From: Actinobacteria bacterium RBG_16_68_21
GTDB taxonomy: Bacteria; Actinomycetota; Acidimicrobiia; Spongiisociales; UBA11373
Assembly: GCA_001767695.1 (NCBI GenBank)
Contig: MELR01000023.1
Location: forward strand, 16,326 to 69,716
Reading direction: 5' to 3'
DNA: 53,391 bases
In this document: positions 36,676 to 38,132 of the stretch, one piece after another
Numbering within the stretch: position 1 is the stretch's first letter
Layout: each line of letters opens with the position of its first letter
The notes under the pieces: model-generated
Databases searched by the model: none
Told to the model about the DNA's origin: nothing
What the model saw: only the letters and a program-made list of their open reading frames with translations
Translations under genes and position numbers: made by a program

Positions 36676-36897
36676 TCACTGCCCGCTGGGGGCGGGGATG
36701 CGCGCCGGGCGGGGGACCGGCTGGAAATGCGTCCAGCAGTGCTCGTTCTTGTTGTACGCGGAGAGTCGCGTGGTGCAACCTCGGGCGGCGCAGACCCGGT
36801 CGGCGCCGTAGGTCTTGCGGGGCCTGCCTCCGTACAGCTTGGAGATGCTGTGGTCGCTCACGGCACCAACCTTGCCATGAATTCGCGAGTTACTCAA
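36676..36897 (-). CDS. small Cys/His-containing basic protein
   Basis: A 60-73-aa ORF with the pattern C-x4-C-x11-C-x2-H (CAARGCTTRLSAYNKNEHCWTH). The start is TTG 36897 or GTG 36861. I do not recognise the family. Confidence 0.45.
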   Translation of the reverse strand: MSNSRIHGKVGAVSDHSISKLYGGRPRKTYGADRVCAARGCTTRLSAYNKNEHCWTHFQPVPRPARIPAPSGQ

Positions 36898-36971: not shown

Positions 36972-36999
36972 CGGAAACTGGAAACGGGAAAGTCGAAAC
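36972..36999. repeat. heptamer array CGGAAAC/TGGAAAC/GGGAAAG/TCGAAAC
   Basis: Read directly from the sequence. Confidence 0.8.
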
Positions 37000-37050
37000 C
37001 CCTGAGATTCACAACCCTCCGATCCGCCTTGTGCCAATATGGCGTCACGA

Positions 37051-37151
37051 AGAAAGGAGGTGGTCCGAAGGTGATAGCCAGTCTTTACGGGACTTCGGAG
37101 GTGGTCGGGCGCTAGGACGACCATCCCTGGGGTGGTCGTCCTCGGGCTTTT
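37051..37151 (+). other. candidate small transcript: 16-nt anti-16S-tail complement, 14-codon ORF, intrinsic terminator
   Basis: AGAAAGGAGGTGGTCC lies at 37051-37066. A GTG ORF at 37071-37115 encodes MIASLYGTSEVVGR. A second GGAGGTGGTC lies at 37097-37106, followed by the terminator. Confidence 0.35.
37114..37151 (+). terminator. rho-independent terminator
   Basis: A perfect 10-bp stem AGGACGACCA/TGGTCGTCCT with a 9-nt loop is followed by CGGGCTTTT. Confidence 0.6.
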
Positions 37152-37255
37152 CCGAAGGCGGCGACTCCAACCCGGACCACCGGAGTCGGGAGATCCGCGA
37201 GCTGGTCCTCTCGCGGCGGCGGCAACGCCGAAGCATCTCCCGGCTCTTCCGCGTC

Positions 37256-37297
37256 TACGGCGCACCGGCTGCCGGCGTCCGGCTACCGGCAAGACCC
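37256..37297. repeat. heptamer array (NNCCGGC): TACGGCG/CACCGGC/TGCCGGC/GTCCGGC/TACCGGC/AAGACCC
   Basis: Read directly from the sequence. It is closely related to the 16841-16861 segment. Confidence 0.75.
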
Positions 37298-37832: not shown

Positions 37833-38132
37833 CTACCCCCCGTCCCCGGCTTGTAGGGCCGCGGTCTGCTGCTCGTCGAGGCGGGACAGCACTTGGCTGT
37901 CTTCGGTGCCGGGCACGATGAACTCGTAGTCCGTGTCGTATCGGAAATGGTCGCCGCAGGAGGGGCATCGCAGTAGCTTGTGCAGGCGGCTGCCGTCGCT
38001 ACCCAGATCCTGGACCTCGATGAGCCGATCGATCGCCCCCGGGATGAAGGTGCTCTCCTCGGGCCATCCCCCCTTCTGGGCACCGTATTCCCGGTCGCCG
38101 AGCTCGCCGCACACCGCGCAGGTTGTGGCCAC
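37833..38132 (-). CDS. zinc-ribbon hypothetical protein
   Basis: It has CAVC near the N-terminus and CPSC about 50 residues later. The GTG start is preceded by GGAGAGGGA. It lies 4 nt downstream of the AcnX small subunit gene. Confidence 0.55.
   Translation of the reverse strand: MATTCAVCGELGDREYGAQKGGWPEESTFIPGAIDRLIEVQDLGSDGSRLHKLLRCPSCGDHFRYDTDYEFIVPGTEDSQVLSRLDEQQTAALQAGDGG

What the first reader, a model, noticed from the sequence alone, without database searches (positions are those of the whole stretch)
37038..37151. Orphan locus with 16-nt complementarity to the 16S rRNA 3' tail, a 14-codon ORF and an intrinsic terminator
AGAAAGGAGGTGGTCC (37051-37066) matches the complement of the canonical bacterial 16S 3' end GGAUCACCUCCUUUCU at 15 of 16 positions. 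The odd position would form a G-U wobble. This is far longer than a normal Shine-Dalgarno sequence. A GTG lies 10 nt after the GGAGG core and opens a 14-codon ORF (MIASLYGTSEVVGR, stop at 37113-37115). A CCGAAG/CTTCGG stem (37065-37070 and 37093-37098) encloses that start. A second GGAGGTGGTC sits at 37097-37106. A perfect 10-bp hairpin plus a T-run (37114-37151) follows. No plus-strand gene lies downstream; the next genes are all on the minus strand. The unit therefore looks like a stand-alone small RNA or micro-protein gene. Alternatively, read on the minus strand, it is a 5' leader of the small Cys/His protein gene carrying two CCACCUCC anti-SD mimics.
Basis: partly seen in the sequence, partly recalled or inferred. 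Interest (0 to 1): 0.6.

Follow-up and report, generated by a model that had tools for sequence, protein, structure and literature searches.

The report
Ribosome-docking small RNA with mini-ORF
The flagged sequence is the front half of a roughly 205-base small RNA gene, a divergent Acidimicrobiia member of the catalogued but functionally unsolved actinobacterial sRNA Ms_IGR-5, which begins with a 16-base match to the ribosome's 16S tail and carries a conserved 14-codon reading frame.

Summary
The 16-nt complement to the 16S 3' tail is the longest in this 2.03-Mb assembly. The unit is not an orphan and does not end at 37151. It is the 5' half of a single-copy plus-strand RNA, about 37047-37252, found across Acidimicrobiia and other Actinomycetota. 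A covariance model built from it hits the same loci that Rfam RF02471 (Ms_IGR-5) scores at 48-186 bits. The window itself scores 14.3 bits, below the 45-bit cut-off.

Across 103 family members:
- The stop codon sits at one fixed position in all 103.
- 91 have an in-frame ATG, GTG or TTG; 30% are expected after shuffling.
- 100 have an ORF of 12-15 codons, but the peptide's N-terminal half varies freely.

The 5' end pairs with the ORF's distal part (P1, covarying). The second GGAGGUGG is the 5' strand of a covarying long-range helix (P2). The "terminator" is an internal hairpin.

The design matches the published alpha-proteobacterial rreB/rreR small mRNAs, which bind 30S and are weakly translated. 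Function remains unknown. I read it as a ribosome-docking mini-mRNA in which translation, not the peptide, matters. This scan has already found the same class on other DNA, in Acidobacteria and Chloroflexota.

The parts
37032..37040 (+). Extended -10 promoter (TGc CAATAT), 6 nt upstream of the transcription start
   Evidence: Position-specific conservation upstream of 103 homologs: T at -15 (59%), G at -14 (78%), A at -11 (63%), T at -7 (79%). Alignment of close relatives.
37047..37047 (+). Inferred transcription start (+1 A)
   Evidence: A at the aligned +1 in 101 of 103 homologs. The NAD captureSeq preprint places the M. smegmatis IGR-5 start on an A (10.1101/2021.12.14.472595). Inferred for this organism, not measured.
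37047..37255 (+). Whole conserved RNA, about 205 nt (Ms_IGR-5 family member). The 3' end is approximate.
   Evidence: BLAST and MAFFT conservation limits. Model R1 matches 1-216. Plus strand folds at -116 kcal/mol (z -3.9), minus strand at -98.5 (z -2.5).
37048..37052 (+). P1 helix, 5' strand (CGAAG); pairs with 37093-37097
   Evidence: Covariation in 100 sequences. Pair 37048-37097: CG 71, GC 10, AT 9. Pair 37049-37096: AT 49, GC 29, CG 14. Pair 37050-37095: GC 87, AT 7.
37051..37066 (+). SD1: 16-nt complement to the 16S rRNA 3' tail. Core AAAGGAGGUG lies in the internal loop; GGUCC also pairs with GGAC at 37090-37093 (P1b).
   Evidence: Nearly invariant in 103 homologs; the purine-tract variants are A/G only, and both pair with the tail's U. 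The wobble G at 37063 pairs with C at 37093 in P1b (GC 96 of 100).
37071..37115 (+). Mini-ORF: GTG start, 14 codons, TAG stop
   Evidence: Stop at the same column in 103 of 103 (TAG 58, TGA 33, TAA 12). Canonical in-frame start in 91 of 103, against 30% after shuffling. 12-15 codons in 100 of 103.
37093..37097 (+). P1 helix, 3' strand (CUUCG), inside the ORF (codons 8-9)
37100..37109 (+). Second SD-like motif (G)GAGGUGGUCGGG, the 5' strand of long-range helix P2. GAGGUG is always 9 nt before the stop.
   Evidence: Its pairs with 37171-37181 covary. Pair 37104-37177: GC 68, AT 9, CG 5. Pair 37108-37172: GC 58, AT 19. Pair 37109-37171: GC 46, CG 9. Fixed spacing to the stop in 103 of 103.
37114..37142 (+).
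   Evidence: Compensatory changes among relatives. 8 of 9 pairs show at least two Watson-Crick types, but the alignment is gap-rich here. Not called a terminator.
37143..37155 (+). P4, a short hairpin of variable length
   Evidence: Hairpins of variable length and sequence at this place in relatives. Constrained fold.
37160..37170 (+). Conserved junction GGCGACUCCAA; possibly pairs with GGGGU at 37129-37133
   Evidence: Invariant in the family alignment. The alternative helix is 82% paired, with 4 of 5 pairs covarying. Role unresolved.
37171..37181 (+). P2, 3' strand (CCCGGACCACC), an internal look-alike of the 16S anti-SD strand
   Evidence: In this family it is also complementary to SD1, giving an alternative fold 12 kcal/mol more stable in silico.
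37183..37246 (+). 3' domain: P5 (37183-94 : 37235-46), P6 (37195-201 : 37210-16, with loop CUGGUCCU holding a conserved GUCC), P7 (37217-21 : 37226-30). Likely the terminator stem.
   Evidence: Covariation in 12 of 12, 7 of 7 and 5 of 5 pairs. G-U 137 against A-C 46 over the three helices. -41.9 kcal/mol, z -3.7.
37247..37255 (+). Pyrimidine-rich 3' tail (UUCCGCGUC)
   Evidence: T fraction 0.30 against 0.17 for the RNA as a whole. Clear T-runs in some relatives. The 3' end is inferred.

Best explanation
The locus is a free-standing plus-strand gene for a small RNA of about 205 nt. It is a divergent Acidimicrobiia member of the actinobacterial Ms_IGR-5 family, built like the alpha-proteobacterial rre small mRNAs.

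How I think it works:
1. Transcription starts at A37047 from an extended -10 promoter.
2. The 5' hairpin (P1/P1b) displays the SD core in an internal loop.
3. The free 16S 3' tail nucleates there and can zip to a 16-bp duplex, displacing P1b and part of P1. This docks a 30S subunit very tightly.
4. A 14-codon ORF starts in the apical loop. It runs through the 3' strand of P1 and the 5' strand of the long-range helix P2, and stops at a fixed place.
5. A translating ribosome must therefore unzip both helices.
6. It terminates with the second SD-like GAGGUG about 8 nt behind its P site.

Shown here: homology, single copy, promoter, covarying helices, and conservation of start, frame, length and stop without conservation of the N-terminal peptide.

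Inferred: what is selected is ribosome docking and transit, which couples ribosome engagement to the RNA's fold and lifetime, rather than the peptide. The physiological role is unknown.
For: - Conservation. 53 of 61 relatives match by DNA search. Model R1 hits 72 of 151 genomes of the class and 57 of 151 of the phylum, one copy each except one genome.
- Family link. R1 hits in L059-L062, L067, L053, L055 and L068 are RF02471 matches at 48-186 bits. RF02471 gives sub-threshold hits at the same places as R1 in 41 genomes of the class.
- ORF:
  - A stop at one column in 103 of 103, using all three stop codons.
  - GTG, ATG and TTG interchange as starts, 91 of 103 against 30% after shuffling.
  - Near-cognate CTG, ATC or ATA at the same place in the rest.
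  - 12-15 codons in 100 of 103.
  - Loop codons show no excess variation at the third position.
- Structure. P1, P2 and P5-P7 covary, and G-U pairs exceed A-C pairs.
- Pairing to 16S. The tail sequence is confirmed in 15 of 15 relatives. This is the longest complement in the genome. Purine-tract variants are A/G only. The predicted duplex is -27.8 kcal/mol.
- Promoter and +1 A.
- Literature:
  - Ms_IGR-5 homologs carry ribosome footprints in M. abscessus and M. smegmatis (PMC4974804).
  - It is a discrete sRNA transcription unit in S. avermitilis (PMC8780764).
  - It is validated by RNA-seq in S. lividans (PMC8079986).
  - rreB, which has a 17-nt SD, a GTG start and a 14-aa sORF, co-sediments with 30S, is weakly translated, and is stabilised when its start codon is replaced by a stop (PMC5711450).
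Against: - There are no expression, ribosome-binding or translation data for this organism.
- The window misses RF02471's gathering score (14.3 bits against 45).
- The 5' hairpin alone is no more stable than shuffled sequence (z 0.22).
- In this sequence the thermodynamic optimum pairs SD1 itself with the CACC strand (-112.4 against -100.2 kcal/mol for the covariation-supported fold). SD1 may therefore be largely hidden at rest.
- The C-terminal peptide part (T-x-E-V-A/V-x-R) is conserved, but it overlaps P1 and P2. A peptide function cannot be excluded.
- 12 of 103 members lack a canonical start.
- rreB overexpression gave no growth phenotype (PMC5711450).
Confidence: 0.6

Rival explanations
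1. It is an ordinary micro-protein gene. The 14-aa peptide is the functional product, and the RNA structure only tunes its expression.
For: Start, frame, length and stop are conserved. The C-terminal T-x-E-V-(A/V)-x-R is conserved across the phylum. RreB and RreR peptides are conserved within their clades (PMC5711450).
Against: - Codons 2-6 vary at positions 1 and 2 as much as at position 3, so there is no purifying selection on the amino acids there.
- The conserved C-terminal codons coincide with the P1 and P2 strands, which covary with their partners.
- About 140 nt of conserved, covarying non-coding structure follow the stop.
- Near-cognate starts occur in about 12% of members.
Confidence: 0.12
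2. The RNA is not translated. Its 5' SD only binds the 16S tail, either as a 5' stabiliser against 5'-exonuclease (STAB-SD-like) or as a sponge or sensor for free 30S subunits.
For: - The SD lies 4-20 nt from the 5' end and is far stronger than needed for initiation.
- The rreB extended SD gives strong 30S binding but suppresses translation (PMC5711450).
Against: - Binding alone would not require a start codon, a fixed frame and a stop at one column in 103 of 103 members.
- The rreB authors judged simple ribosome titration unlikely to be a major function, because overexpression did not alter growth and ribosomes far outnumber the RNA.
Confidence: 0.15
3. This is the first reader's short unit: a transcript of about 100 nt (37047-37151) ended by the 37114-37142 hairpin plus T-run. 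In a weaker form, that hairpin acts as an attenuator giving a short isoform in this organism.
For: A perfect 10-bp GC-rich hairpin (-23.8 kcal/mol, z -3.9) is followed by UUUU. Shorter rreB products are seen on Northern blots.
Against: - Only four Ts, six nt after the stem, so the scan does not call it a terminator.
- Relatives lack the T-run.
- Conservation and covariation continue to about 37250.
- Metatranscriptome contigs from relatives span the site.
Confidence: 0.06
4. The functional strand is the minus strand. The region would be a 5' leader of the Cys/His protein gene carrying two CCACCUCC anti-SD mimics.
For: The Cys/His gene is adjacent in most loci of the same family. The minus strand also folds better than shuffled sequence (z -2.5).
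Against: - Promoter and +1 A are conserved on the plus strand.
- G-U pairs exceed A-C pairs on the plus strand.
- The ORF signature is on the plus strand only.
- In L004, L007, L008 and L012 the Cys/His gene lies upstream on the same strand as the RNA.
- No Cys/His gene lies within 1.5 kb outside family f1.
- Homologs are known sRNAs.
Confidence: 0.02

Closest known systems
Rfam RF02471, Ms_IGR-5 (Actinobacteria sRNA; M. smegmatis IGR-5, between MSMEG_5794 and MSMEG_5795; Li et al. 2013)
   Same: - The 5' motif is the same: ACnnnGRARGGAGGUGGUCC.
- Both have the mini-ORF, the second GAGGUG, the P2 helix and a 3' hairpin domain.
- Both are about 160-250 nt and single-copy.
- Model R1, built from this window's family, hits bona fide RF02471 members, and RF02471 gives sub-threshold hits on this class at the same loci.
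   Different: - This copy scores 14.3 bits against the 45-bit cut-off, and only 1 of 151 genomes of the class passes it. Standard annotation therefore misses it.
- The central hairpins P3 and P4 differ.
- In this family the two GGUGGUC motifs are identical, which allows an alternative fold.
- In the papers I could read, Ms_IGR-5 is treated as an uncharacterised non-coding sRNA. I found no description of its 16S-tail complement or its ORF.
rreB / rreR small mRNAs of alpha-proteobacteria (Hahn et al., RNA Biol 2016/2017, PMC5711450)
   Same: - A free-standing transcript of about 165 nt.
- 16-17 nt of complementarity to the whole free 16S 3' tail.
- A GTG start and a 14-aa (rreB) or 18-aa (rreR) sORF.
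- Part of the SD is single-stranded as a seed and the rest lies in a hairpin.
- A structured 3' part and terminator.
- Function unknown.
   Different: - In rre genes the complementarity runs into the first base of the start codon. Here 4 nt separate the two.
- No sequence homology is shown. The Rfam families CC2171 and BjrC68 give only chance-level scores.
- The paper does not mention Actinobacteria.
- 30S binding and weak translation are shown for rreB only.
STAB-SD 5' mRNA stabiliser of Bacillus thuringiensis cry3A (recalled from memory: Agaisse and Lereclus 1996)
   Same: A GAAAGGAGG-type sequence near the 5' end pairs with the 16S tail and could shield the RNA from 5'-end-dependent decay.
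   Different: STAB-SD works without a start codon or ORF. Here start, frame and stop are conserved.
Dual-function sRNAs and regulatory leader peptides (for example SR1/SR1P, SgrS/SgrT, erm leaders; from general knowledge)
   Same: A short translated frame is embedded in a structured regulatory RNA, and ribosome transit remodels the helices.
   Different: There is no downstream gene to regulate, no known base-pairing target, and the peptide is far shorter than known dual-function sRNA peptides.

Membership tests
Rfam RF02471 Ms_IGR-5 | Score at or above the family's gathering cut-off (45 bits) | tested here: not met
   14.3 bits, E 3.1, at 37045-37170. No hit in the own genome under strict filters.
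Rfam RF02471 Ms_IGR-5 | Homology to bona fide members shown by reciprocal profile searches | tested here: met
   Model R1, built from this window's relatives, hits loci that RF02471 scores at 48-186 bits. RF02471 gives sub-threshold hits at the R1 places in 41 genomes of the class.
Rfam RF02471 Ms_IGR-5 | Shared architecture: 5' SD motif, mini-ORF, second GAGGUG, long-range helix, 3' hairpin domain | tested here: met
   Present in all 103 unique members, including the RF02471-positive ones.
Rfam RF02471 Ms_IGR-5 | Expressed as a discrete small transcript | not testable with these tools
   Shown elsewhere for M. smegmatis, S. lividans and S. avermitilis. Here there are only short metatranscriptome contigs from relatives covering 37056-37260, which cannot show strand or ends.
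rre small mRNAs (rreB/rreR) | At least 16 nt of complementarity to the 16S rRNA 3' end, upstream of a sORF | tested here: met
   16 nt (15 Watson-Crick pairs plus one G-U) at 37051-37066. The tail sequence is confirmed in relatives.
rre small mRNAs (rreB/rreR) | Very short conserved sORF (14-18 codons), usually with a GTG start, on a free-standing transcript of about 165 nt | tested here: met
   14 codons, GTG start, RNA of about 205 nt with its own promoter and no downstream gene.
rre small mRNAs (rreB/rreR) | [quoted passage not shown] | tested here: not met
   The complement ends at 37066 and the start is at 37071. The gap between GGAGG and the start is 6-12 nt across the family.
rre small mRNAs (rreB/rreR) | Strong 30S binding, weak translation, start-codon-dependent turnover | not testable with these tools
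   Experimental properties of rreB only (PMC5711450).
rre small mRNAs (rreB/rreR) | Sequence or structure homology to rreB | tested here: inconclusive
   Only weak Rfam scores to alpha-proteobacterial sRNA models: CC2171 at 18.2 bits against 75, BjrC68 at 25.2 against 39 in one locus. I did not establish that either model is an rre gene.
Intrinsic terminator at 37114-37151 | GC-rich hairpin directly followed by a U-tract, marking the 3' end of the conserved unit | tested here: not met
   Not called by the scan. Four Ts lie 6 nt after the stem. Conservation continues about 100 nt further.
6S RNA (RF00013) | Match to the model, or a rod-like fold with a central bubble | tested here: not met
   No match in the genome at E up to 10. 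The covarying structure is multi-branched.
STAB-SD 5' stabiliser | 5'-proximal SD-like sequence that acts without an associated start codon or ORF | tested here: not met
   The SD is 5'-proximal, but a start, frame and stop are conserved behind it.

The most novel reading that the evidence does not exclude
Ms_IGR-5 and the rre small mRNAs, together with the look-alikes this scan noted in Acidobacteria and Chloroflexota, would be one ancient and widespread class of 'ribosome-docking mini-mRNAs'. In this reading the RNA senses or gates free 30S subunits. The 16S tail invades the 5' hairpin. One round of translation unzips P1 and P2. The freed anti-SD-like CACC strand then recaptures SD1. In this organism that fold is 12 kcal/mol more stable in silico. 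The result would be a translation-triggered conformational latch that controls the RNA's lifetime or the activity of its 3' domain.
Probability: 0.15. Interest if true: 0.8.

Novelty: new member of a known kind. Interest (0 to 1): 0.45.

Why it matters
- Annotation. It puts a name and boundaries on an unannotated gene that standard Rfam annotation misses in almost all Acidimicrobiia (1 of 151 genomes over the cut-off).
- A link between two literatures. The actinobacterial sRNA Ms_IGR-5 is listed as a non-coding sRNA of unknown function. It shares its defining design with the alpha-proteobacterial rre small mRNAs: a whole-tail Shine-Dalgarno sequence plus a 12-15-codon frame.
- Sharper experiments. 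Across the phylum, selection acts on start, frame, stop position and the helices that the ribosome must open, not on the peptide's N-terminal half. Experiments should therefore test ribosome docking and transit rather than look for a peptide function.
- The open question. The physiological role of this widespread class is unsolved, and tractable models exist in M. smegmatis and Streptomyces.

Tried and rejected
- 6S RNA. No RF00013 match in the genome, and the fold is not rod-like.
- A functional link to the neighbouring Cys/His protein. It has no Pfam family, and its homologs are unnamed Acidimicrobiia proteins. It is adjacent only within family f1, in varying orientation. I read this as family-level synteny only.
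- A universally conserved neighbouring gene. ORF clustering around 58 loci gave none; spurious high-GC ORFs add noise.
- RNAalifold's consensus on close relatives paired the first GGUGGUCC with GGACCACC. Phylum-wide covariation assigns that strand to the second motif instead.
- The pairing GGUGGUCG:CGACCAUC (second motif with the 5' arm of P3) is only 28% paired across the family.
- Metatranscriptomes. Four RNA libraries from four studies hold short contigs (155-289 nt) of relatives matching only 37056-37260 at 85-97% identity. Contigs cannot show transcription, strand or ends, and the flanks of relatives differ anyway, so I draw no conclusion about expression.
- Literature searches by sequence strings found nothing relevant.
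- The original Ms_IGR-5 paper (PMC3527728) is not held.
- The M. tuberculosis element ncRv0810c/ncRv10810c could not be tied to this family.
- I did not resolve the central junction, P3 against the GGGGU:ACUCC helix.

Full report
**Observation.**
- The 16-mer AGAAAGGAGGTGGTCC lies at 37051-37066.
- GTG lies at 37071.
- A 14-codon frame ends with TAG at 37113-37115.
- The CCGAAG/CTTCGG arms and a second GGAGGTGGTC (37097-37106) are there.
- A 10-bp hairpin (37114-37142) is followed by TTTT.

All neighbouring genes are on the minus strand: an MBL-fold hydrolase, a 73-aa Cys/His protein, a GNAT acetyltransferase and an aconitase-X operon.

The assembly is 2.03 Mb in 35 contigs, 92% complete, and holds no 16S gene. 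I therefore read the 16S 3' end in relatives. All 15 that have it, seven from the same family, end in GGATCACCTCCTTTCT. The 15 Watson-Crick pairs plus one G-U are therefore real. A scan of the whole genome shows that this is the single longest complement to the tail: 16 contiguous pairs, with 14 as the next best. The predicted duplex is -27.8 kcal/mol, against -11.6 for a strong ordinary SD.

**The unit is larger than reported.** A DNA search found the segment in 53 of 61 relatives across 12 families. Re-alignment showed that conservation runs from about 37047 to about 37255. The plus strand folds better than the minus strand: -116 kcal/mol with z -3.9, against -98.5 with z -2.5. A covariance model built from 18 relatives (R1) finds one copy per genome in 72 of 151 genomes of the class and 57 of 151 of the phylum. 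One genome has two copies. The RNA was not found in the very small genomes sampled.

**Identity.** A permissive Rfam scan of the window gave only chance-level hits: Caulobacter CC2171 at 18.2 bits and Ms_IGR-5 at 14.3 bits against a 45-bit cut-off. The phylum-level R1 hits in mycobacteria-like and other genomes, however, are RF02471 (Ms_IGR-5) matches at 48-186 bits. Run on the class, RF02471 passes its cut-off in only 1 of 151 genomes but gives sub-threshold hits at the very places R1 finds in 41. The locus is therefore a divergent Ms_IGR-5 homolog that standard annotation misses.

What the literature says about Ms_IGR-5:
- It is a validated but uncharacterised sRNA of M. smegmatis, NAD-capped, with a start on an A (10.1101/2021.12.14.472595).
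- It is validated by RNA-seq in S. lividans (PMC8079986).
- It is a discrete sRNA transcription unit in S. avermitilis (PMC8780764).
- It carries ribosome footprints in M. abscessus and M. smegmatis (PMC4974804).

**Anatomy from 103 unique family members**.
- *Promoter.* Upstream lies a conserved extended -10 element, TGn(T/C)AnnnT, 6-7 nt before an A that is present in 101 of 103. This puts the start at A37047.
- *5' end.* It reads AC-N3-4-G-R-A-R-GGAGGUGGUCC almost invariantly. The only variation in the purine tract is A/G, and both pair with the U residues of the 16S tail.
- *The wobble G.* The odd G at 37063 is conserved because it also pairs with C37093 in helix P1b (GC in 96 of 100).
- *P1.* The 5' end (37048-52) pairs with 37093-97 with clear covariation, for example AT 49, GC 29 and CG 14 at one pair.
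- *P2.* The second GGAGGUGG is the 5' strand of a long-range helix with 37171-81. Its variable positions covary. The first motif never varies, and shows mismatches wherever that partner strand changes.
- *P3.* The hairpin at 37114-42 is an internal, variable hairpin.
- *3' domain.* The three-helix domain at 37183-37246 covaries at 24 of 24 pairs. G-U pairs outnumber A-C pairs by 137 to 46, which fixes the strand. A pyrimidine-rich tail follows.

**The mini-ORF.**
- In the frame set by GAG-GUG of the second motif, a stop lies exactly five codons on in 103 of 103 sequences (TAG 58, TGA 33, TAA 12).
- A canonical in-frame start lies 6-12 nt after GGAGG in 91 of 103 (GTG, ATG and TTG). After shuffling the loop, 30% is expected. 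The other two frames score 54 and 22.
- The remaining members have CTG, ATC or ATA at the same place.
- The frame is 12-15 codons long in 100 of 103.
- Codons 2-6 vary at positions 1 and 2 as much as at position 3. The conserved C-terminal residues coincide with the P1 and P2 strands.

Selection therefore acts on the existence, frame, length and end point of translation, not visibly on the peptide.

**Mechanism (inferred).**
1. The SD core sits in an internal loop, where it can serve as a seed.
2. Full 16-bp pairing with the 16S tail must displace P1b and part of P1.
3. The ribosome then reads through the 3' strand of P1 and the 5' strand of P2.
4. It terminates with GAGGUG about 8 nt behind the P-site codon.

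In this family the CACC strand is also complementary to SD1. In silico, that fold is 12 kcal/mol more stable than the covariation-supported one, so the RNA could switch between states with SD1 exposed and hidden. None of this has been measured.

**Comparison with known systems.** A lead from earlier notes of this scan took me to Hahn et al. (PMC5711450). In Bradyrhizobium, rreB is a 165-nt small mRNA with a 17-nt complement to the 16S tail, a GTG start and a 14-aa sORF. It co-sediments with 30S subunits, is weakly translated, and is stabilised when its start codon is replaced by a stop. Analogs (rreR and others) occur in several alpha-proteobacterial orders. The function is unknown. The design here is the same, with two differences: 4 nt separate the complement from the start codon, and no sequence homology is shown. 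That paper does not mention Actinobacteria or Rfam. In the papers I could read, I found no description of the SD or ORF of Ms_IGR-5.

**Rivals.**
- A functional micro-protein is not excluded, but the free variation of codons 2-6 argues against it.
- A purely non-translated 30S binder or 5' stabiliser does not explain the conserved start, frame and stop.
- The short 100-nt unit fails on conservation beyond the hairpin.
- The minus-strand leader fails on promoter, G-U asymmetry, ORF signature and synteny. The Cys/His gene is adjacent only in family f1, and in four loci it lies on the same strand upstream.

**Verdict.** The locus is a new, divergent member of a known but functionally unsolved class. 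This scan has already reported the same class on other DNA, in Acidobacteria, Chloroflexota and other Actinobacteria. I did not test those claims. No claim in this report rests on the genomes flagged as unpublished (G051, G192, G236, G274, G303) beyond their inclusion in the tallies.

Noticed in passing
window 36973-36999 and 37264-37290: Two short arrays of 7-nt tandem repeats (GGAAACT x3.9 and ACCGGCT x3.9) flank the RNA gene. One lies in the divergent promoter region, the other just downstream.
   Followed up: partly
window 36676-36897 (-): A 73-aa basic protein with a C-x4-C...C-x2-H motif has no Pfam family. Its homologs are unnamed proteins, one of them from an Acidimicrobiia MAG. It stays next to the RNA gene throughout family f1 although its orientation flips: divergent in most loci, same strand upstream in L004, L007, L008 and L012. 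It was not found within 1.5 kb of the RNA in other families.
   Followed up: partly
own genome G000, e.g. C20:44953(-), C7:43730(-), C10:11947(+): Many sites in this genome carry long SD-like sequences of the GGAGGTGATC type, with 12-14 contiguous pairs to the 16S tail. Extended Shine-Dalgarno sequences may therefore be common in this organism. I did not check which sites precede genes.
   Followed up: no
G211:C17:3902-4111 and G211:C126:9248-9458; G002:C156 and G002:C9: Two genomes carry two copies or look-alikes of the RNA, whereas all others have one. G007, a complete one-contig genome of the same family, has none by either DNA or model search.
   Followed up: no
L016:1331-1568 (-): One relative has an insertion of about 24 nt at the P4 hairpin, itself a near-palindrome. 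This shows that P4 tolerates large length changes.
   Followed up: no
window 37833-38132 (-): A 99-aa ORF with two CxxC pairs and no Pfam hit sits between the GNAT gene and the aconitase-X swivel gene. It is conserved in a same-genus relative (L003).
   Followed up: no
window 37202-37209 (P6 loop) and 37090-37093 / 37174-37177: The P6 loop holds a conserved GUCC that could pair with either conserved GGAC, forming a possible pseudoknot or kissing contact. All partners are invariant, so covariation cannot test it.
   Followed up: no
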